Source: Minisyncoccota bacterium
Lineage (GTDB): Bacteria > Patescibacteriota > Minisyncoccia > Phycocordibacterales > Phycocordibacteraceae
Direction of reading: 5' to 3'
DNA: 64,000 nt
Assembly: GCA_041660025.1 (NCBI GenBank)
Contig: JBAZXD010000001.1
Span: 40,059-104,058, forward strand
The position numbers were made by a program, and so were the translations under genes. The notes beneath the pieces were generated by a model. That model saw only the letters and a program-made list of their open reading frames with translations, was not told where the DNA came from and searched no databases. Of this stretch, positions 4,473 through 55,873 are shown in pieces. Numbering within the stretch: the first letter of the stretch is position 1; each line of letters begins with the position of its first letter.

Positions 4473-6053
4473 ATGCCCGCGGCGCGCTCGGAATCCGCAA
4501 CAGTCCGCCCGTCCGCTCCCTTGAAGAGAGCCGCGCCGAAAAGCGGCTACGCCAAGACGCTTGCCGCACAACCGGTCGGCTCCGGCGCGGAGATCATTAC
4601 CGTCGAGGCCGACCTCACGCGCGGTTTGCATAATTTCTCGGTCGTCGGGCTCGCCGACAAGGCGGTCGATGAGGCGCGCGATCGGGTTAGCGCCGCGATA
4701 CGCCACTCCGGTCACAAGCCACCCAAACAGCAGAACAAACGTATCGTCCTCTCGCTCTCGCCAGCGGACCTGAAGAAAGAAGGCTCGCACTACGACCTCG
4801 CGCTCGCGCTTGCTTACCTCATCGCCGCCGGCGACCTCGCGCCGCTTGAAAGCGAGATGCTGTTTGCCGGCGAGCTCGCGCTCGACGGGACTCTGCGGAG
4901 CGTGCGTGGCATACTCCCGCAAGTGCTCGCCGCCAAGCGCCGCAAGGTCAAGACGATGTTCGTCCCGCCAGGAAATGCGCGCGAGGCGCTTCTCGCGGAA
5001 GGCGTGGCGATCTATGCGCCAAAGTCGCTTGCGGAACTTTTACAGCATTTGAAAGGGGAGAAGCCGCTTCCACGCCTTCTGCGCGACCGCCGCGCGCCGG
5101 TGCCGCCGCCCGCGCTCGACCTCCAGGATGTGAAAGGGCAAGAGAGTGCGAAGCGCGCACTCGAGATCGCCGCCGCCGGTCGCCACAACATCGTCTTTTA
5201 CGGCCCGCCGGGGACAGGGAAGACGATGCTCGCTCGCGCGCTCTCCGGCATCCTCCCGCCGCTCTCCGATGACGAGATGCTCGAGGTAACAGCGATACAC
5301 TCGACCGCCGGACTGCTCAAAGACGGCGAGGCAGTCTACTGGCCGCCCCTGCGCGCGCCGCACCACTCGATATCCCACGTCGCCATCGTCGGCGGGGGCA
5401 CGTTCCCGAAGGCGGGCGAGGTAACGCTCGCGCACAAGGGTGTCCTCTTCCTCGACGAATTCCCCGAGTTCGACTCCCGCACGCTCGAAGCGCTCCGTCA
5501 GCCGCTCGAAGACCGCGTCGTAACCGTCTCGCGCGCACGGGCGAGCATTACCTTCCCGGCCGACTGTATGATCGTCGCGGCGATGAATCCCGCGGACACA
5601 CTCTCCGACGACGCGCGGGTCGCCTTTCGCGCCGCGGCGAAGCAGGCGCGCCGCATCAGCCGGCCCATCGTCGACCGCCTCGACCTCTGGATCGAAGTGC
5701 CGCTCGTTCCGCACGCGACACTTGCGAAACTGAGTACCGGAGAATCGTCGGAGAGCGTCCGCGAACGCGTCGTCGGCGCGCGAGTACGGGCGGCGAAGCG
5801 AAGCGGTAAGTCAGGCGCGACGAACGCCGCGCTCTCTGGTCGTGAACTCGACGAAAAAAGTGGATTTACCCCGGAAGCGAAGGAGACGCTTACCCAGTCT
5901 GCCGCGCGCCTCAATCTCTCGCCGCGGAGCTACCACCGCACGATGCGCGTCGCGCGCACCATCGCCGACCTCGCCGGCGTCGAAGCGGTCACTCCGGCTT
6001 TCGTGCACGAGGCTCTACAATATCGCCCCCGCGGTCTCTTCGGATTTGAATGA
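4473..6053 (+). CDS. comM: YifB/ComM-family Mg-chelatase-like AAA+ ATPase
   Basis: Lon-like N-terminal domain, Walker [28 protein letters not shown], and C-terminal Mg-chelatase domain. ATG at 4473 (MPAARSE...). Confidence 0.85.
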
Positions 6054-6099: not shown

Positions 6100-6186
6100 A
6101 AAGAGCTTACTACGACGAGCGAGGGAACAAACGAATGCATTTTGTTTGTTCCTCGAGCGAGGAAGGAGAAAGCGTGCAAGTAACGC

Positions 6187-7299
6187 TTATTGGGGAGCAC
6201 AGACAGCGCCGACAGAGCAATTACGGAAAGGATTGGCCGCGCCGCGGACTTCGAAGTGGAGATGCGCTCCGGTTGAGAGACCGGTCGAGCCGACATAGCC
6301 GATAATCTGGCCGGACGCGACCGACTGTCCCGGCGAGACCGCGACGCTCCGCATGTGCGAATAGAGGGTCTGTGAACCATTACCGTGCGTGATAACGACG
6401 TAGTTGCCGTAGCCGCCATTCCAGCCGCCGCCGCCGCGCGCGACGATGACGGTCCCGTCGGCGGCGGCGCGGATCGTCGTGCCGCGCGAGGCGCCGAAGT
6501 CGACGCCGTTCCAGCCGTGAAGTCTCTGCGTGAGGACGGCGCCCGGGATGGGATTGCTGTAGTAGCCCGTCTGTGCGGAGCCACCACCACCCAAGAAAGG
6601 TTCGCGGATGGTGGATGACGGACGTGCGCTCGACGCGGGCGCGATGATCTCGCCGCCCGGGATGATGATGGTTGAACCGACCTTAAGAGGTTCCGCCGGA
6701 TCGAGACCGTTGAACTGAGCTATATCACCCGCATCGGCACTGTATTTCTTGGCGAGCGACTTGAGCGTATCGCCCTTCGCGATCACGCGCTCGACGCCCG
6801 AGACGGGCAGGATGACGAGCGTATCGCCCGGATGCACATCCCGCGTGCTCTTCAGATTGTTCGCCCACAGGATGGTATTTACCGAGACACCGAACATGTT
6901 CGAGATATCCGAGAGGGTATCGCCCGCGCGCACTACGTAGACCGAGATGCGGTCGGGTTGTACTGCACCCTCGACGTCCGCCAGCGTGCCGGAGGGGCCG
7001 CTATAGGAGACGAGCGCCGCACCGCCAGAGGTAGCGAGCGCTATGGGCGCCCCGGGGTTCGGGTTCCTGTTTATTGACGCCATCAATACCGGCGTCGAAG
7101 CGCTCGGGACGAGCGCATTGGTCGTTGCCGCCCCCGCATTCGTAGAAAAAGGCCAGAACGCACTTGCGTGGTTCGGCAAGATTGCGGCGGCACCTACGAC
7201 GGCCGCGAATCCGAGTATGAAGAATTGTTTGTTGAATGTAATGGGAAAACGAGGGTGTCGGCGGGTCTTTCTAATACAAAAATGGCTTACATAAGCCAT
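6187..7299 (-). CDS. secreted LysM-domain M23-family peptidoglycan endopeptidase
   Basis: Signal-like N-terminus. LysM motifs (YVVRAGDTLSDISNMFGVSVNTILWAN; IAKGDTLKSLAKKYSADAGDIAQFNGL). M23 catalytic motifs HxxxD...GYVGSTGLSTGAHLHFEVR. The exact start is uncertain. Confidence 0.8.
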   Translation of the reverse strand: MAYVSHFCIRKTRRHPRFPITFNKQFFILGFAAVVGAAAILPNHASAFWPFSTNAGAATTNALVPSASTPVLMASINRNPNPGAPIALATSGGAALVSYSGPSGTLADVEGAVQPDRISVYVVRAGDTLSDISNMFGVSVNTILWANNLKSTRDVHPGDTLVILPVSGVERVIAKGDTLKSLAKKYSADAGDIAQFNGLDPAEPLKVGSTIIIPGGEIIAPASSARPSSTIREPFLGGGGSAQTGYYSNPIPGAVLTQRLHGWNGVDFGASRGTTIRAAADGTVIVARGGGGWNGGYGNYVVITHGNGSQTLYSHMRSVAVSPGQSVASGQIIGYVGSTGLSTGAHLHFEVRGAANPFRNCSVGAVCAPQ

Positions 7300-17671: not shown

Positions 17672-18136
17672 ATGCGCCGACCCCTGAAAAAGAAGCGCAC
17701 CTGGCGTCCGGACCTCAAATACGGTTCGGAGACTCTCACTCGCTTCATCAATGCGGTTATGTGGGACGGTAAGAAGGATACGGCGCGCACCGTCGTCTAT
17801 GACGCCCTCGCCGTTATCGAGAAAGGAGGGGAGAACCCGCTCGAGACATTCGAAGCGGCGCTTCGCAACGTGTCGCCTTTGATGGAGGTCCGCTCCCGCC
17901 GCGTCGGCGGTGCGAACTACCAGGTGCCGCGCGAGGTGCCGCAGACGCGCCGTCTCGCACTCTCGTTCCGCTGGCTCATCACCGCAGCGCGCAACAAGAA
18001 GGGTAAGCCGATGGCGGAGAAGCTCGCCGCCGAGCTCCTCTTGGCCTCTAAGAACGAGGGTGACGCTATCAAGAAGAAGGACGAGATGCACCGTATGGCG
18101 GATGCCAACAAGGCCTTCGCCCATTTCGCCTGGTAA
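17672..18136 (+). CDS. rpsG: 30S ribosomal protein S7
   Basis: FINAVMWDGKKDTARTVVYDAL...RRVGGANYQVP...LAAELLLASKNEGDAIKKKDEMHRMADANKAFAHF. Confidence 0.9.
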   Translation: MRRPLKKKRTWRPDLKYGSETLTRFINAVMWDGKKDTARTVVYDALAVIEKGGENPLETFEAALRNVSPLMEVRSRRVGGANYQVPREVPQTRRLALSFRWLITAARNKKGKPMAEKLAAELLLASKNEGDAIKKKDEMHRMADANKAFAHFAW

Positions 18137-18223
18137 GCTTTGAAGACAAAGCTTTCTCCCTACGCTCGCCTCGGACAAATATATGCAGACATACATTTGT
18201 CACTCGGCTCGCTTGGTAGTAAT
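18137..18223 (+). repeat. structured intergenic element, copy A (between rpsG and fusA)
   Basis: gctttg-aaga-caaagc hairpin, then conserved block ctacgctcgcctcgg, variable hairpin acaaat...atttgt, then conserved block cactcggctcgcttggtagtaa. Weak hairpin and T-run follow (18231..18255). See findings. Confidence 0.5.
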
Positions 18224-18262
18224 CTATTAGTGCGCCACGGCGCTTTTATTTTTATTTAATTT

Positions 18263-48520: not shown

Positions 48521-50466
<1,946 letters not shown>

Positions 50467-50566
50467 CAAGCGAGTGAATCAAAAGAATATTCCTTATTCT
50501 TTTGTGAACGAGCGCTGCTAGAAAGCCGGCTTTGCGGCTTACTAAGGTCCGACCTTAGAATTTTTG

Positions 50567-51344: not shown

Positions 51345-52856
51345 ATGCAGTCTCTCCTCAATCGTCTCGCATTTCCGGGGTGGCGCTATGCGCTCGCGGC
51401 GCTCATCGTGCTTGCGGCGGGCGGGTATTTCTTTTTCGGCCGGAGCGACGACTCGGGCGCGACATTTGTCGTTATTTCGGGCGATTTTCGACAACAAGTG
51501 AACGTCTCGGGCGCCGTCATCGCGGCCCGGGATGTCGATCTTGGCTTTGCGGCGAACGGGCGCATCTCCGGCACGTACGCGAGCGTCGGTCAACGCGTTT
51601 TCGCGGGAGCGGTCATTGCGGAGACAGAGAATGGCGACCTTGTCGCGGCGCTTACGCAGAAACGCTCCGCGCTTACTGAAGCCGAGGCGGATCTCTCAGC
51701 ACTCCGCGCCGGCACGCGCGGAGAAGAACTCGCCATAGCCTCCGCCTCCGTTGTGAATGCGCAGGCCGCGCTCGTTGACGCCGTACGAGGCGCCTACACT
51801 TCTTCTGATGATGCTATTCACAATAAAACAGACACCTTTTTTACCAATCCGCGCATCGACCCGAAGCTTTCGTTCAATGTCTCGAACGCAAGCCTAAAGA
51901 CTACGGTCGAACGCGACCGCACCGCGCTTGAGCCGGTGCTCGCGCAATGGGCGCTTCTCGTCGGAGCGCTCTCGAGTGCGAATGCCGCTTCTGCGGCGAA
52001 ACAATCTCAGACCTTTCTTGCACAGGTCACGACGTTTCTCGCCGACGCGAATGCCGCAATCAACCAAGGCGTTCCGGATTCGACCGTGACAGCCGCCACG
52101 CTTACCTCGTATGGGACGACGCTCGCGACGGCGCGGAGCAACGTGAACGCCGCCGCGACGACGCTTACGACCGATACCTCGGCGCTCAACTCGGCCGAGC
52201 GGAATCTCGCGCTCAAGCAGGCCGGCTCGACGAGCGAAGACATCGCGGCGCAAGAAGCGGCGGTCGCCGCCGCCGCGGCGGACGTGGAACAGGCGCGCGC
52301 CGCGCTTGCTAAGACGCGCGTCGTTGCGCCCTTCACCGGCATTATTACCCGTATGGATGCGAAGGTTGGTGAGATCGTTTCCCCCTCGACCTCTCTTATT
52401 TCTATGCAGAGCGACGGCATCTTTCAGATCGAGACCTACGTTCCCGAAGTATCCATCGCGCGCGTTGTCGTCGGGAACAGAGCGACGACGACGCTTGACG
52501 CGTACGGCTCCGCGATCGCATTCCCCGCGACGGTCGTCGCGGTCGACCCGGCGGAGACGATGAAGGACGGCGTGCCGGCGTATAAGACGACGCTCGCGTT
52601 CCTCACGGCGGACCAGCGTATCCGGAGCGGTATGACGGTGAACGTCGTCATCGAGACCGGCGTGCTCCGCGACGCCATCGTCATCCCCGCGGGCGCGGTC
52701 GGTACGAAGGACGGCGCGTCGTACGTCTCTGTTTCCACCGGCGATACCATAGTGCCCCGTCCGGTCACCACCGGCCCCGCTCCCGCGCTGGGGCAAGCTC
52801 AGATCCTCTCGGGCCTCTCATCCGGCGACGTTATTCTTCTCTCTCCTGCGCCCTAG
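51345..52856 (+). CDS. HlyD/MacA-like membrane-fusion (periplasmic adaptor) protein
   Basis: N-terminal TM anchor, long Ala-rich coiled-coil, C-terminal beta-barrel/lipoyl-like region (VAPFTGIITRMDAKVGEIV). First gene of an MFP-permease-ATPase trio. Confidence 0.65.
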   Translation: MQSLLNRLAFPGWRYALAALIVLAAGGYFFFGRSDDSGATFVVISGDFRQQVNVSGAVIAARDVDLGFAANGRISGTYASVGQRVFAGAVIAETENGDLVAALTQKRSALTEAEADLSALRAGTRGEELAIASASVVNAQAALVDAVRGAYTSSDDAIHNKTDTFFTNPRIDPKLSFNVSNASLKTTVERDRTALEPVLAQWALLVGALSSANAASAAKQSQTFLAQVTTFLADANAAINQGVPDSTVTAATLTSYGTTLATARSNVNAAATTLTTDTSALNSAERNLALKQAGSTSEDIAAQEAAVAAAAADVEQARAALAKTRVVAPFTGIITRMDAKVGEIVSPSTSLISMQSDGIFQIETYVPEVSIARVVVGNRATTTLDAYGSAIAFPATVVAVDPAETMKDGVPAYKTTLAFLTADQRIRSGMTVNVVIETGVLRDAIVIPAGAVGTKDGASYVSVSTGDTIVPRPVTTGPAPALGQAQILSGLSSGDVILLSPAP

Positions 52857-52858
52857 GC

Positions 52859-54115
52859 ATGCTCTCCCTTCTCAATATCCGCGTCGGCTTCTACCTCGCC
52901 CTGCGACAGCTCCGCAGAGCGAGTCTCTGGACCACGGGGCTTATCGTGTTCGTGATGCTTCTCACGTTCCTCAATCTCGTCGTCGTCACCGGCATCCTCG
53001 TCGGGCTCATTGACGGCATCAACAATAGTTATCGTACCCAATACACGGGCGACGTTATTCTCTCGGCGCTCTCGACGAAGGAGTACATCGAGGATACGCC
53101 GAGCATCGTCGCGTTCCTGAAGACGCTGCCGCAGGTCGCGCTCCTGACCGAGCGGTACCAGACGGGCGGCACCATAGAAGCGAACTATCTCACACGCACG
53201 AGCGAGACAGAGAAGCCGAATGCCACCAGCGCGCAGATTATCGGTATCGACCCCGTCGCCGAGGACGCGTTCACCGGACTCTCTCAGCACATTATCGAGG
53301 GGCAGTATCTCGCCGACGGGGACTACGACCAGATCCTCGTCGGCAATTACCTGCTCGCGCAATATGCGTTCGGCGAGCTGCCGGGCCTCACGCCTCTGAA
53401 GAACGTCTCGCCGGGAACGAAAGTGCGCCTCACCGTGAACGGCGCCACGCGCGAGGTCATCGTGAAAGGATTTGTGAAGACCAAGATTGACGCGCTCGCG
53501 ATGAGCATCTTTATGCCCGCGTCCGAATTGCGGACGATCATGGGCCGGAACGACCAGAACGTCGCGCAGGTGGCGATACGCCTTACTCCCGGGAGCGATC
53601 CGGTCGCGTTCAAGGAACTCCTCCTCGCGAGCGGCATCGGGGTAAAGGCGAAGGTGCAGACCTTCGAAGATTCCATCCCGAACGGCGTCGCCGATATCAA
53701 GACGACCTTTGCGATGCTCGGGAACGGCTTCAGCAGTATCGGGCTCGTCGTCGCGGCCATCACCATCTTCATCGTCATCTTCATCAATGCGATCACGCGG
53801 CGGAAATTCATCGGCATCCTCAAAGGTATCGGCATCTCGGGCGAGGCTATCGAGATCTCCTACATCTTCCAGTCGCTCTTCTACGCCGTCATCGGCTCGG
53901 CGATAGGCGTGCTCGTCCTCTACGGAGTCCTGGTGCCCGGGCTCGCCGCGCACCCGATCGATTTCCCGTTCAGCGACGGCATCCTCGTCGCGCCACCGGT
54001 CGATACTTCGGTGCGTATTCTCCTGCTCGTCTTCACGACCGTCGTCGCGGGCTACCTGCCCTCGCGGATGATCGTGCGCCGGAACACGCTCGACTCCATC
54101 CTCGGTCGCAATTAA
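52859..54115 (+). CDS. ABC transporter permease, FtsX/MacB-like
   Basis: N-terminal TM, large extracytoplasmic domain, three C-terminal TM helices (FtsX fold). Confidence 0.8.
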   Translation: MLSLLNIRVGFYLALRQLRRASLWTTGLIVFVMLLTFLNLVVVTGILVGLIDGINNSYRTQYTGDVILSALSTKEYIEDTPSIVAFLKTLPQVALLTERYQTGGTIEANYLTRTSETEKPNATSAQIIGIDPVAEDAFTGLSQHIIEGQYLADGDYDQILVGNYLLAQYAFGELPGLTPLKNVSPGTKVRLTVNGATREVIVKGFVKTKIDALAMSIFMPASELRTIMGRNDQNVAQVAIRLTPGSDPVAFKELLLASGIGVKAKVQTFEDSIPNGVADIKTTFAMLGNGFSSIGLVVAAITIFIVIFINAITRRKFIGILKGIGISGEAIEISYIFQSLFYAVIGSAIGVLVLYGVLVPGLAAHPIDFPFSDGILVAPPVDTSVRILLLVFTTVVAGYLPSRMIVRRNTLDSILGRN

Positions 54116-54121
54116 CTATCT

Positions 54122-54802
54122 ATGATCGAAGTCACAAATCTCGTAAAAAGTTTTAAGGACGGCCCAATCGAGACGCGAGTCCTGAAGGGTATCGATTTCT
54201 CCGCGAAGCGGGGCGAGTTCATCGCCATTATGGGCCGCTCGGGAGCGGGAAAGAGCACCCTCCTCTACCAGATGTCGCTTCTCGACGAACCGACCTCAGG
54301 CGAGATCCGCATCAATGGCAAGGAGGCGCACCGGATGAGCGAACACGAGAAGATGCTCTTCCGCCTCACCGAGTTCGGCTACGTGTTCCAGGACTATGCG
54401 CTTCTGCCGGAGCTCACGGCGCTCGAGAATGTCGCCCTGCCGCTCCTTATGCAGGGCGCCACGCGCGCCGCCGCGGAGGCGAAGGCCTCCTCCGCGCTCG
54501 AGCGCGTCGGCCTCGGGAGCCGGCTCAATAATCTCCCGAGCCAGCTTTCGGGCGGCGAACAGCAGAGAGTCTCCGTCTCCCGCGCCATCGCGCACACACC
54601 GGACATCCTTTTCGCCGACGAACCGACGGCGAACCTCGACCGCGAATCTTCTTCGACCGTGATGGATATCTTCAAGGAGCTCCACAAAGCGGGGCAGACC
54701 ATCATTATGGTGACGCACGAGGAGGAATACGCGCGCATCACCGACCGTATCATCACTCTCGACGACGGAAAAATAATTTCTAACGAACGCGCATCCGCCT
54801 GA
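54122..54802 (+). CDS. ABC transporter ATP-binding protein (MacB/LolD-type)
   Basis: Walker A GRSGAGKSTL, signature LSGGEQQRVSVSRA, Walker B ILFADEPTANLD. Confidence 0.9.
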   Translation: MIEVTNLVKSFKDGPIETRVLKGIDFSAKRGEFIAIMGRSGAGKSTLLYQMSLLDEPTSGEIRINGKEAHRMSEHEKMLFRLTEFGYVFQDYALLPELTALENVALPLLMQGATRAAAEAKASSALERVGLGSRLNNLPSQLSGGEQQRVSVSRAIAHTPDILFADEPTANLDRESSSTVMDIFKELHKAGQTIIMVTHEEEYARITDRIITLDDGKIISNERASA

Positions 54803-54915: not shown

Positions 54916-55143
54916 ATGAAGTTACACGCTATCGCGTTCGTTCTTGTCGTCATCGGCGGTCTCAATTGGGGACTCGTGGCGATTGGGTCCTATATGGGCA
55001 GCAACTGGAACGTCGTGAACCTCCTCCTCGGCTCGTGGCCGGCGGTCGAGAATCTCGTCTATCTGGTTGTCGGTCTCTCGGCGCTCACACTCGTCTTCTC
55101 GCACAAGAAGGACTGCCGCGCCTGCAACCCTTCGGGGATGTAA
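54916..55143 (+). CDS. DUF378-family small membrane protein
   Basis: GGLNWGLVAIG...VENLVYLVVGLSALTLVF. 75 aa. ATG at 54916 inside the longer track ORF. Confidence 0.55.
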   Translation: MKLHAIAFVLVVIGGLNWGLVAIGSYMGSNWNVVNLLLGSWPAVENLVYLVVGLSALTLVFSHKKDCRACNPSGM

Positions 55144-55144
55144 A

Positions 55145-55228
55145 CTCTGAAGACAGAGTTTTCTACCTACACTCGCTCGGAAATAATGAAGTAAAGATCT
55201 CATTATTTCCTCGCTCGTTTGGTAGTAA
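55145..55228 (+). repeat. structured intergenic element, copy B
   Basis: actctg-aaga-cagagt hairpin (covaries with copy A), ctacactcgctcgg, variable hairpin aaataatga...tcattattt, cctcgctcgtttggtagtaa. Its own strong terminator follows at 55250..55285. Confidence 0.5.
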
Positions 55229-55249
55229 GCCGCAAGGCAAAAAGCAAAA

Positions 55250-55285
55250 GAATCGCCGGCGCAAAGCGCCGGCGATTCTTTTTAC
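55250..55285 (+). terminator. strong intrinsic terminator following element copy B
   Basis: gaatcgccggcgc-aaa-gcgccggcgattc followed by ttttt. Confidence 0.6.
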
Positions 55286-55350
55286 TCCCTTCGCTCGCCT
55301 CGGTCGAACGCATGGGGACATGCACTCGACGTTCGGCTCGCTTGGTAGTA
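55284..55350 (+). repeat. structured intergenic element, copy C (lacks the 5' hairpin)
   Basis: ttcgctcgcctcgg, variable hairpin tcgaacg...cgttcg, gctcgcttggtagtag. Confidence 0.5.
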
Positions 55351-55422
55351 GCATCAAAATGTTGAAAGGAATTGCTTTCGACAAAACAAACGGATGCTCT
55401 GTCAAAAAAAGGAGAGGTTCGA

Positions 55423-55779
55423 ATGAAAAAAGGAACGATAGAAAGAGAAGAGGGCGGCGCAGTATGGCCGCCACATGCTGTTGTAGCACGATATTCCGAT
55501 CGCGACGAAAGACTGGATGAAGTCGAAGCGAGCGACTATCGTGCAACGGCGCATCGCGAAGACGCTCCTGCGCCGGTAAAATGTCTCGGGTTCGCCTGTC
55601 CTGCGTCGTCAGACATCTGCGATATCTGTCATCTGAACCCGAGTTACATACCTCCGAAAAAGAAACTCACTCGTCCGCAACGGCCTGAAGATGGTCTCGC
55701 GAGTATCGGAGAAGCAAAGCACTATGTGCGCCTTGCTGTCCCGATGTCCCGCGGTCGTCGCGGCGTCGTAAGTCTCTAA
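55423..55779 (+). CDS. hypothetical Cys-cluster protein (118 aa)
   Basis: AAGGAGAG RBS before the ATG at 55423. CLGFACPASSDICDIC (C-x4-C-x6-C-x2-C). GC is visibly lower than the host genes. No family recognised. Confidence 0.45.
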   Translation: MKKGTIEREEGGAVWPPHAVVARYSDRDERLDEVEASDYRATAHREDAPAPVKCLGFACPASSDICDICHLNPSYIPPKKKLTRPQRPEDGLASIGEAKHYVRLAVPMSRGRRGVVSL

Positions 55780-55804
55780 TAAAACAAACTCCCCCCATTC
55801 GACA

Positions 55805-55846
55805 AGAGCGTCCGAGATGTTTCCGGACGCTCTTTTGTTTTCTTTC
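55805..55846 (+). terminator. intrinsic terminator
   Basis: agagcgtccg-(9 nt)-cggacgctct followed by tttgttttctttc. Confidence 0.6.
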
Positions 55847-55848
55847 TG

Positions 55849-55873
55849 GCGGAGGGGGAGGGACCGCGAATAC
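55849..55873. repeat. partial duplicate of the tRNA-Ser 3' end (att-like remnant)
   Basis: ggcggagggggagggaccgcgaa versus 56031..56054 ggtgcggagggggagggattcgaa. A second fragment agggagggattcgg lies at 55901..55916. Confidence 0.5.

What the first reader, a model, noticed from the sequence alone, without database searches (positions are those of the whole stretch)
55144..55372. Copies B and C of the same structured element in tandem, copy B with its own strong terminator
Copy B (55145..55228) reproduces the full architecture of copy A and is followed by a 13-bp-stem terminator (55250..55285). That fits a self-contained small-RNA-like transcription unit, or a terminator-bearing mobile repeat. 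Copy C (55284..55350) starts right at the end of that terminator, lacks the 5' hairpin, and sits ~70 nt upstream of a strong RBS for the low-GC Cys-cluster gene (55423). All three variable hairpins have different sequences but intact stems (6, 9, 6 bp). Tandem occurrence next to a tRNA integration hotspot suggests these elements proliferate or mark recombination junctions.
Basis: seen in the sequence. Interest (0 to 1): 0.6.

Follow-up and report, generated by a model that had tools for sequence, protein, structure and literature searches.

The report
Mobile hairpin repeats of Parcubacteria genomes
Copies B and C are two of five copies in this window of a previously undescribed small hairpin-forming DNA repeat that has inserted at TA dinucleotides (often inside stop codons) across many Parcubacteria (Paceibacterota) genomes; they are not a small-RNA gene, and the terminator between them is not part of the repeat.

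Summary
B (55141-55227) and C (55283-55350) belong to a repeat family with five copies in the window. A covariance model finds 87 more copies in about 70 Paceibacterota (Parcubacteria) genome bins. The unit is an optional variable 5' hairpin plus a roughly 65-nt rod. The rod has conserved, deliberately mismatched arms around a variable inner hairpin, and covariation is strong.

The element is mobile DNA, not a transcription unit. Relatives with an identical neighbouring protein lack B, C or D. The terminator persists where B and C are both absent, so it belongs to the DUF378 gene. Every unit is flanked by TA. Forward insertion into a stop codon rebuilds TAA, and this accounts for 40 of 88 copies. 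Reverse and in-frame coding insertions also exist.

Unexpectedly, the antisense strand folds better in 80 of 89 copies. Tandem G·A pairs and G·U wobbles lie on that strand. This argues against an mRNA-level role and for a single-stranded, structure-recognised intermediate.

No Rfam family, paper, transposase or autonomous partner was found. I read it as a new variant of the REP/MITE kind. The enzyme that mobilises it is unknown.

The parts
55141..55227 (+). Copy B, long form. Left TA at 55141-42, which is the first two bases of the DUF378 stop codon. 5' hairpin at 55142-55161. TTTCT linker. Rod CTACC...GGTAG at 55163-55225. Right TA at 55226-27.
   Evidence: CM hit of 65.0 bits and fold. Identical copy in L174; absent from L175 and L176, whose empty site reads gatgTAAGCTCGC.
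55229..55238 (+). Small hairpin GCC-GCAA-GGC right after B. It resembles a solitary 5' hairpin of the family. It is either a footprint or pre-existing target context.
   Evidence: Sequence. The corresponding stretch in the empty site of L175/L176 is TAAGCTCGCAAATCGGG, which resembles the start of other copies' 5' hairpins.
55246..55283 (.). Bidirectional intrinsic-terminator hairpin of the DUF378 gene (17-bp stem, loop AAA, T runs on both strands). It is not part of the repeat.
   Evidence: It is conserved (90% nucleotide identity over 40 nt) in L175 and L176, which lack B and C.
55283..55350 (+). Copy C, short (rod-only) form. TA at 55283-84, rod CTCCC...GGTAG at 55285-55348, TA at 55349-50.
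   Evidence: CM hit of 69.6 bits and fold. Absent from L174, L175 and L176. The same TA|CTNCC short form occurs in L018 and L027.
18134..18221 (+). Copy A, long form, inserted in the TA of the rpsG stop codon (TAA at 18134-36), upstream of the conserved fusA leader hairpin.
   Evidence: CM hit of 77.4 bits. The rpsG site is empty in most S7 relatives, filled in L103 and L139, and filled in reverse orientation in L096.
50461..50541 (-). Copy D, long form of the CTAGC/GCTAG variant, inserted in reverse into the TA of the last (Tyr) codon of groEL. The reverse complement of its end rebuilds TAC TAG.
   Evidence: CM hit of 66.8 bits. L174 has the empty site GGG TAC TAA cgag.... The displaced original TACTAA now lies at about 50536-50541.
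6108..6189 (-). Copy E, a degenerate long form in the stop codon (TAA at 6189-6187) of the LysM/M23 peptidase gene, followed by that gene's terminator.
   Evidence: CM hit of 32.9 bits, E = 1.6e-07; sequence; Pfam.
54916..55143 (+). DUF378 membrane-protein gene whose stop codon received copy B.
   Evidence: Pfam PF04070, E = 5e-13. The identical protein occurs in L174-176.
55386..55779 (+). Conserved leader and RBS (55386-55427) plus the Cys-rich ORF (55423-55779). This is context only and is not part of the repeat.
   Evidence: The leader is conserved in relatives that lack C, but the ORF body is unrelated to theirs. No Pfam match.

Best explanation
B and C are copies of a non-autonomous mobile DNA element, a miniature hairpin repeat in the broad REP/MITE sense, that is specific to Paceibacterota (Parcubacteria).

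**Anatomy (shown).**
- The long form is about 85 nt. It has a variable 5' hairpin, then TT(N), then a rod.
- The short form is about 65 nt and is the rod alone.
- The rod arms are conserved: CTCCC-TG-CGCTCG(C)YTCG on the 5' side and CTCRCTCGCTTGG-TAG on the 3' side. They pair only partly and enclose a free-to-vary inner hairpin.
- Each unit is bracketed by TA on both sides, and an empty site has a single TA.

**Insertion behaviour (shown).**
- Insertion happens in either orientation.
- A forward insertion into a TAA or TAG stop codon rebuilds TAA, because the element starts with A. It leaves ...GGTAG-TA-A/G at the other end. This explains why about half of all copies sit flush with a stop codon in the sense orientation. 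B is one of these.
- C is a short form that landed on the TA at the end of the terminator's T run.

**Mobilisation (inferred).** The element is mobilised in trans by an enzyme that recognises the folded single strand. Selection for pairing is strand-specific. The reverse-complement strand carries the G·U wobbles and turns the conserved UC/UC loops into stable tandem sheared G·A pairs (5'-CGAG/3'-GAGC). Whether the TA is a true 2-bp duplication (DDE style) or a target plus an identical element end (HUH style) cannot be told from sequence. The enzyme is unknown.

**Effect on the host at this locus (inferred).** The effect is probably near neutral. B lengthens the DUF378 3'UTR by about 85 nt, and C lengthens the spacer ahead of the next gene's leader.
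For: **The family exists.** A pattern scan of one genome per species returned 92 stretches, of which about 70 are Paceibacterota or Patescibacteria bins. The covariance model R1 finds 87 copies in those loci and 5 in the window.

**The structure is supported.**
- 95.0% of cells are paired.
- 191 cells carry a change on both sides.
- 0 of 500 shuffles reach the observed value, and slid controls give 37-51%.
- The outer stem covaries: CTCCC/GGTAG, CTAGC/GCTAG, CTGAC/GTCAG, CTGTC/GACAG and CCGCC/GGCGG.

**The element is mobile.**
- B is present in the window and in L174 but absent from L175 and L176. C is absent from all three. D is absent from L174. All four sequences encode an identical DUF378 protein and are 84-94% identical at nucleotide level.
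- The rpsG site is filled in L139 and empty in L142. It is occupied in only about 4 of 75 S7 relatives.

**TA junctions.**
- L096 carries a reverse insertion that splits the conserved fusA leader: GCGCC-TTTT-TA-[element]-TA-TTTTTT.
- The flanks of pilin-leader insertions rejoin to GGG TT-TA-CA = G F T.
- The base after the 3' TA is a purine in 85 of 88 copies.
- In 40 of 88 copies the 5' TAR is the stop codon of a same-strand ORF of at least 60 codons.

**Strand asymmetry.**
- The reverse complement is more stable in 80 of 89 copies, by 4.2 kcal/mol on average (p = 2e-14).
- In the inner hairpin alone the count is 55 to 23, with 63 G·U pairs against 29.
- The consensus energy is -15.2 against -6.8 kcal/mol.

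**Spread.** Rods that are 96% identical lie at unrelated loci of different bins.
Against: - No transposase, recombinase or autonomous full-length element was found in the window (Pfam). No ORF is bracketed by element ends in 176 loci.
- There are no terminal inverted repeats beyond CTNCC/GGNAG, so the element is not a classical MITE.
- The arms are conserved across bins with very different G+C. Apparently orthologous copies differ by compensatory changes (L003 against L033; the rpsG-site copies). This could mean a host-level function rather than pure selfishness.
- Presence/absence could partly reflect precise deletion between the short flanking repeats rather than fresh insertion.
- The five copies in this window differ a lot from one another, unlike a recent burst.
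- The 14-nt 3' arm and CGCTCG were fixed by my search pattern, so their invariance in the first 70 sequences is by ascertainment. The 17 hits found only by the covariance model relax this.
Confidence: 0.75

Rival explanations
1. A host cis-acting structured RNA placed in 3'UTRs and intergenic spacers, for example an RNase III processing site, a stabiliser against 3' exonucleases, or a leader for the downstream gene. On this reading it spreads only incidentally.
For: - Strong covariation.
- Most copies lie between a stop codon and a terminator, so they are transcribed.
- The arms are conserved across many genera.
- Apparently orthologous copies differ by compensatory changes (L003 against L033).
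Against: - The transcribed (sense) strand is the worse folder in 80 of 89 copies, and the wobble pairs lie on the other strand.
- Copies are dispensable among near-identical relatives.
- Both orientations occur at the same intergenic site (window A against L096).
- Copies occur in frame inside coding sequence.
- The leader and RBS of the 55423 gene are conserved without C.
- There is no Rfam family.
Confidence: 0.12
2. A folded single-strand recombination site, analogous to integron attC sites or the CTX-phage attP hairpin, used by a tyrosine recombinase. The units would be sites that capture or shuffle adjacent ORFs rather than transposons.
For: - Architecture resembles attC: conserved, imperfectly paired outer arms with fixed mismatches plus a variable terminal hairpin.
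- One strand is preferred for folding.
- Position is at the 3' end of ORFs, co-oriented with them.
- Copy C borders a slot whose ORF differs between relatives.
Against: - There are no RYYYAAC/GTTRRRY core sites.
- The polymorphic unit is the element alone, with no cargo gene.
- Hosts are core genes: rpsG, groEL and tRNA neighbourhoods.
- No integrase-like gene was seen in the window.
- The variable ORF is bounded by a conserved leader and a conserved terminator, not by two elements.
Confidence: 0.08
3. A multicopy small antisense RNA gene family transcribed from the better-folding strand.
For: The reverse-complement strand forms a stable rod with tandem G·A motifs typical of structured RNAs.
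Against: - That strand has no conserved promoter or terminator inside the unit. Its upstream flank is whatever lies next to the insertion.
- Copies embedded in frame in pilin leaders, or overlapping the groEL stop, would then be sense, not antisense.
- The unit behaves as inserted DNA with TA junctions.
Confidence: 0.05

Closest known systems
REP / REPIN elements mobilised by RAYT (Y1 HUH) transposases
   Same: - Short extragenic imperfect palindromes, often just after stop codons and often in tandem.
- The hairpin is maintained by compensatory changes and is recognised as a folded single strand.
- A GTAG motif sits at the foot of the stem.
- The elements are non-autonomous.
(The REP side of this comparison is from my own knowledge of the literature.)
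   Different: - REPs are species-specific 20-40-mers, with GTAG lying 5' of and outside the stem. Here GTAG is 3' and is part of the stem.
- The arms are conserved across many genera.
- There is a separate variable 5' hairpin.
- Units are bracketed by TA.
- No RAYT gene could be looked for genome-wide.
TA-duplicating bacterial MITEs that fold as RNA hairpins (Neisseria Correia/NEMIS, enterobacterial ERIC, pneumococcal RUP)
   Same: - Size of about 70-150 bp.
- TA at both junctions, with one TA in empty sites.
- Insertion in either orientation in intergenic DNA.
- Co-transcription with neighbouring genes.
- For Correia elements, no cognate transposase is known.
(From my own knowledge.)
   Different: - Those elements have long, near-perfect terminal inverted repeats. 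Here only 5 bp (CTNCC/GGNAG) are inverted.
- The arms carry fixed mismatches.
- The inner hairpin varies with covariation.
- Folding is strand-biased.
Rickettsia palindromic elements (RPE)
   Same: Small palindromic repeats that can sit in frame inside protein-coding genes without destroying them, as seen here in pilin-like leader peptides. (The RPE side is from my own knowledge.)
   Different: - In-frame insertion is the exception here: six units in five pilin-like genes.
- There is no family-wide open frame (50 of 91 stop-free, like the other frames).
- There is no sequence similarity.
Integron attC sites
   Same: One strand folds preferentially. The outer arms are conserved and mismatched, and the terminal structure is variable. 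The location is at the 3' ends of ORFs.
   Different: - No R''/R' core sequences.
- No cassette cargo.
- No integrase in view.
- The elements insert on their own.

Membership tests
REP/REPIN-RAYT | Imperfect palindrome of about 20-40 nt (REPIN: an inverted pair) with a conserved GTAG-like tetranucleotide 5' of the stem | tested here: not met
   The rod is about 65 nt. GTAG is at the 3' end and pairs within the outer stem (CTNCC/GGNAG). On the other strand the 5' motif reads CTAC.
REP/REPIN-RAYT | A RAYT (Y1 transposase) gene in the same genome, typically flanked by REPs | not testable with these tools
   Only 64 kb of this genome and 8-kb pieces of others are held. No such ORF was seen.
REP/REPIN-RAYT | Extragenic, multicopy, with the hairpin kept by compensatory change | tested here: met
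   Five copies in 64 kb and 87 in 683 kb of related loci. Covariation.
TA-duplicating MITEs (IS630/Tc1-mariner-derived; Correia, RUP, ERIC) | TA at both junctions, with a single TA at the empty site | tested here: met
   Copy B against L175/L176; copy D against L174; L096; pilin leaders. A true duplication cannot be told apart from a target TA plus an element-borne TA.
TA-duplicating MITEs (IS630/Tc1-mariner-derived; Correia, RUP, ERIC) | Terminal inverted repeats of at least about 15-25 bp that match a transposase-bearing IS | tested here: not met
   Only CTNCC/GGNAG is inverted, and the arms are CGCTCG against CTCGCT. The long form has no inverted termini at all. No parent IS was found.
Integron attC | R''(RYYYAAC)...R'(GTTRRRY) core sites | tested here: not met
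   Absent from the consensus on either strand.
Integron attC | Preferential folding of one strand, with conserved mismatches and a variable terminal structure | tested here: met
Integron attC | Arrays of ORF-attC cassettes next to an intI integrase | tested here: not met
   Copies follow core genes (rpsG, groEL, DUF378, M23 peptidase). The polymorphism involves the element alone. No integrase is in the window.
Any curated RNA family (Rfam 15) | Score at or above the family's gathering threshold | tested here: not met
   Only tRNA-Ser passes in the window. In E-value mode on 55100-55420 every match lies far below its threshold and mostly hits the terminator hairpin.
Intrinsic terminator | GC-rich stem followed directly by a U run | tested here: not met
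   The rod ends in GGUAGUAA. The real terminators lie beside the copies (55246-55283; after E; after the minus-strand gene upstream of D) and persist without them. The 5' hairpin followed by UUUCU is only weakly terminator-like.

The most novel reading that the evidence does not exclude
This is the first sighting of a lineage-wide class of strand-specific hairpin transposable elements in the reduced genomes of Paceibacterota (candidate phyla radiation). On this reading:
- An as yet unknown enzyme that reads a folded single DNA strand mobilises them. The folded strand has tandem G·A arms and a free inner hairpin.
- They target TA with a strong bias for stop codons.
- They are built so that insertion repairs what it breaks. 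The stop codon is rebuilt in one orientation, TAC-TAG is rebuilt in the CTAGC variant in the other orientation, and a second G|FT cleavage site is created in pilin leaders.
Probability: 0.45. Interest if true: 0.7.

Novelty: new variant of a known kind. Interest (0 to 1): 0.6.

Why it matters
- **Mobile DNA in reduced genomes.** Patescibacteria have tiny, streamlined genomes and are usually described as poor in mobile DNA. A conserved miniature element at about one copy per 13 kb that is still polymorphic between close relatives changes that picture.
- **A population marker.** The element gives a ready marker for strain-level population genomics.
- **A practical annotation issue.** The copies sit on stop codons, split tRNA-like sequences and lengthen pilin leader peptides. 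Gene callers and tRNA finders will mis-call these places.
- **A route to an enzyme.** The strand-specific, mismatch-bearing hairpin with a free inner stem is a defined substrate. It could lead to a new single-strand DNA transposase or recombinase, of the kind that has proved useful as a genome-engineering tool.
- **A warning about covariation.** Strong covariation in an intergenic repeat need not mean a functional RNA on the transcribed strand.

Tried and rejected
- **Known RNA family.** Rfam at gathering threshold and in E-value mode gave nothing.
- **sRNA unit with its own terminator.** The terminator is conserved without the elements, and there is no promoter-like site.
- **Leader of the Cys-rich gene.** The leader and RBS are conserved without C.
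- **S7 autoregulatory or operon element.** Copy A and eight other copies follow rpsG, but the site is empty in most S7 relatives and is filled in reverse in L096.
- **tRNA intron.** Copies lie in the D-loop of tRNA-like 5' halves (L016, L055, L085, L077). These are partial duplicates next to intact or group-I-intron-bearing tRNA genes (PMC13011429).
- **Coding module.** The reverse strand reads TTKRAE...SEASAG in pilin leaders. However, only 50 of 91 copies are stop-free in that frame, like the other two frames.
- **DNA uptake sequence.** The two arms are not inverted copies of one motif, and the density is too low.
- **Autonomous parent element.** No split ends bracket an ORF.
- **Phage origin.** The single viral-contig pattern hit is a chance match that the covariance model rejects.
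- **Replication-strand bias.** GC skew in the window is flat and uninformative.
- **Literature.** Five searches found no description of such repeats in Patescibacteria or Parcubacteria.

Full report
**1. What is at 55144-55372**

The sequence shows the following features in order:
- the DUF378 gene (54916-55143; Pfam PF04070), ending ATG TAA;
- a small hairpin, AAACTCTG-AAGA-CAGAGTTT;
- TTTCT;
- a long imperfect hairpin running from CTACC (55163) to GGTAG (55225), followed by TAA;
- a mini-hairpin, GCC-GCAA-GGC;
- a 17-bp GC-rich hairpin with T runs on both sides (55246-55283);
- directly after it, TA and a second long hairpin from CTCCC (55285) to GGTAG (55348), followed by TAG.

About 60 nt further on lie the RBS AAAGGAGAGG and the ATG at 55423.

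A covariance model built later (R1) scores C at 69.6 bits, B at 65.0 bits and the earlier copy A (18151-18221) at 77.4 bits. D lies at 50526-50461 (66.8 bits) and E at 6173-6108 (32.9 bits, E = 1.6e-07). Nothing else in the window exceeds 11.7 bits.

**2. It is a large family restricted to one lineage**

I scanned one genome per prokaryotic species with the pattern CGCTCG-N25-55-CTCGYTTGSTAGTA. The scan returned 92 stretches. About 70 of them are metagenome-assembled genomes labelled Paceibacterota, Parcubacteria, Kaiserbacteria, Nomurabacteria, Minisyncoccia or Patescibacteria. The other 22 are chance hits inside genes of unrelated phyla.

The parts not fixed by the pattern are conserved too. 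The consensus is [TAA]GC-hairpin-GCTT(T/G/C)-CTCCC-TG-CGCTCG(C)YTCG-[inner hairpin, 25-30 nt]-CTCRCTCGCTTGG-TAG-TA-(A/G).

R1 finds 87 copies in those 683 kb. Some of these diverge from the pattern.

Rfam has no such family. Five literature searches found no description. The viral collection gave one chance match, which R1 rejects.

**3. The structure is real**

I counted pairs on a MAFFT alignment that was not fitted to any structure.
- 95% of pair cells are standard pairs.
- 191 cells carry changes on both sides.
- 12 of 17 pairs show such changes.
- No shuffle out of 500 reaches these values.
- Sliding the partners by 1-3 columns drops pairing to 37-51%.

The inner hairpin falls into two main sequence types and many variants, always with compensation.

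The five-pair outer stem also covaries. CTCCC/GGTAG is the commonest form. CTAGC/GCTAG occurs three times, and CTGAC/GTCAG, CTGTC/GACAG and CCGCC/GGCGG each occur once.

The 5' hairpin varies freely in sequence and length. Loops are often NRGA.

**4. It is inserted DNA, present in some close relatives and absent in others**

Three assemblies (L174-176) encode a DUF378 protein identical to the window's. They are 84-94% identical to the window at nucleotide level.

*Copy B.* L174 carries B base for base. L175 and L176 lack it. Their sequence runs gatgTAAGCTCGC... straight into the same terminator.

*Copy C.* None of the three relatives has C. All three have the terminator, and all three have the leader and RBS of the next gene. 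The terminator therefore belongs to the DUF378 gene, and C is not that gene's leader.

*Copy D.* L174 also lacks D. There groEL ends GGG TAC TAA, followed by 19 nt and the convergent gene's terminator.

*The rpsG site.*
- L139 has two tandem copies where L142 has none. Their downstream flanks are homologous.
- Only L103, L139, L096 and, weakly, L126 are occupied at that site, out of about 75 S7 relatives with enough downstream sequence.
- In L096 the copy is in reverse orientation.

**5. The junctions**

In every resolvable case the unit is bracketed by TA, and the empty site has one TA.

| Case | Junction |
|---|---|
| B | ATG-TA-[AACTCTG...GGTAG]-TA-AGCC, against the empty site ATG-TA-AGCT |
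| L096 | The conserved fusA leader GCGCC-TTTT-A-TTTTT is split as ccttttTA[reverse element]TAtttttt |
| D | GGC-TA-[CTAGCAAG...GGCT]-TA-CTAAGG, against the empty site GGG-TA-CTAACG |
| C, L018, L027 | The rod alone is bracketed: ttttTA\|CTCCC...GGTAG\|TAg |

From sequence alone a 2-bp duplication cannot be told apart from insertion next to a TA by an element that itself ends in TA.

- The element begins with A, so a forward insertion into TAA or TAG rebuilds TAA. It leaves GGTAG-TA-A/G at the far end. The base after the unit is a purine in 85 of 88 copies.
- In 40 of 88 copies the 5' TAR is the stop codon of a same-strand ORF of at least 60 codons. Eight more copies follow another copy in tandem.
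- A reverse insertion at a stop codon would read through into TAC TAC CAA... The two reverse copies that touch a gene end (window D, and L078 by analogy) are of the CTAGC/GCTAG variant. The reverse complement of that variant reads TAC TAG, so GroEL still ends ...G-Y-stop.

**6. In-frame insertions in pilin leaders**

In L010, L013, L063 and L088 the element lies on the coding strand's complement inside type IV pilin-like genes. It is in frame, and each unit adds 29 codons. An example is MKNSSSGFT|TKRAERQTRVFTCLSEASAGREAVRGFT|LIETMIAV. L013 and L063 each carry two units in tandem.

The flanks rejoin to G-F-T. The unit ends by recreating G|FT, so the lengthened leader should still be cleavable. 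That last point is an inference.

This is not a general property of the family. Only 50 of 91 copies are stop-free in that frame, against 54 and 48 in the other two frames.

**7. The folding strand is the 'wrong' one**

Folding each rod on both strands shows the reverse complement to be more stable in 80 of 89 copies. The mean difference is 4.2 kcal/mol (Wilcoxon p = 2e-14).

Two things cause this:
- The conserved UC/UC internal loops of the sense strand become tandem sheared G·A pairs in a CGAG/GAGC context on the other strand.
- The one-sided changes in the inner hairpin are G·U on the other strand and A·C on the sense strand. The counts are 63 against 29 wobble pairs, and 55 against 23 copies.

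The consensus energies are -15.2 against -6.8 kcal/mol.

About half of the copies are co-transcribed in the sense orientation. Selection for pairing is therefore not acting on the mRNA. It acts on a single strand of the opposite sense. In the absence of any promoter in the unit, the most economical reading is a folded single-stranded DNA intermediate recognised by a trans-acting enzyme, as with REP/RAYT, IS200/IS605 or attC/IntI. This step is inferred, not shown.

**8. What I could not find**

- No transposase, integrase or HUH-like ORF lies in the window. The window is core genome: the str and S10 ribosomal operons, groEL, RNase J, pilM/pilB and comF-like genes.
- No ORF is bracketed by element ends in any fetched locus.
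- GC skew is flat.

**9. Points that cut the other way**

- The arms are conserved across bins whose elements range from 38 to 63% G+C. Rods that are 96% identical occur at unrelated loci of different bins. Yet the five copies in this window differ from each other.
- Copies at the same gene end in different species show compensatory differences. Examples are the DUF378 site (window B, L003, L033), the rpsG site and a roughly 420-aa protein ending ...HKK.
- These facts fit either several long-lived master lineages with hot-spot insertion or some host-level constraint. I give the host-RNA reading 0.12.
- The 3' arm (CTCACTCGCTTGGTAGTAA) closely resembles the rpsG 3' end (GCTCACTTCGCTTGGTAA) and tRNA D-arms, where copies recur. 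This hints at target choice by likeness to the element's own end. I leave this unexplained.

**10. Verdict**

The copies are a proliferating repeat. They are not terminator-bearing, not an sRNA unit, not a leader and not tied to the tRNA.
- The family works like REP/REPIN or Correia-type miniature elements but fails defining features of each. It has no 5' GTAG outside the stem, no long inverted termini and no attC cores.
- I class it as a new variant of a known kind, with moderate to high interest because of three points: its host lineage, its strand-specific architecture and its insertions that repair their own damage.

Noticed in passing
L010 about 5000-5200(-); L013 1700-1930; L063 6600-6800; L088 7000-7650: The element is inserted in frame (29 codons per unit, one or two units) inside the leader peptide of type IV pilin-like genes. 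It duplicates the G|FT cleavage motif, for example MKNSSSGFT|TKRAERQ...EAVRGFT|LIETMIAV.
   Followed up: partly
L016 3930-4100; L055 350-540; L085 1640-1960; L077 4590-4700: Copies sit exactly in the D-loop (TGGTA^G) of partial tRNA 5' halves. These lie next to an intact tRNA-Gln (L085) or next to tRNA-Asp-like genes that ARAGORN misses. The misses are probably the group I intron-bearing tRNAs described in PMC13011429. In L085 the flanks of the insertion form an 18-bp hairpin.
   Followed up: partly
window 18228-18262 and the same place in L095, L100, L102, L107, L110, L117, L118, L149, L151: A conserved hairpin (GCGCC-nnn-GGCGC) followed by TTTTATTTTTAT lies immediately upstream of the fusA start codon. 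It is widely conserved and independent of the repeat. It may be a terminator/attenuator or a promoter region of fusA.
   Followed up: no
L093 1098-1138, L094, L097, L100, L107, L112, L136, L162 (just after the rpsG stop): A second, unrelated pair of hairpins lies flush with the rpsG stop codon in relatives (ttttacgaagtaaaatt + ATCCCGAG-cttgt-CGAGGGAT). The pattern matches 7 fetched loci and none in the window. The rpsG stop appears to be a hot spot for small insertions.
   Followed up: partly
window about 51380-54780: The HlyD/FtsX/ABC-ATPase (MacAB-like) operon is an indel among relatives with an identical DUF378 protein. It is absent in L174 and L176 and present in L175 and the window. No repeat copy lies at its borders.
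   Followed up: partly
window 55386-55863: This is a variable ORF slot. The leader and RBS (55386-55427) and the terminator (55804-55863) are conserved in L174-176. The 118-aa Cys-rich ORF body has no detectable similarity to the 110-111-aa ORF at the same place in those relatives, and it has no Pfam match.
   Followed up: partly
window 50530-50556 (-): The mini-hairpin CTAAGG-tcgga-CCTTAG just 5' of copy D contains the displaced original groEL end (TAC TAA). It looked at first like an element with its core deleted, but it is flank sequence.
   Followed up: yes
L126 1960-2062; L121 1960-2010: Diverged relatives of the element follow rpsG. Their 3' end is an exact 15-nt copy of the rpsG terminus (CACTTCGCGTGGTAA), giving long direct repeats. 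This bears on the origin or the targeting of the 3' arm.
   Followed up: no
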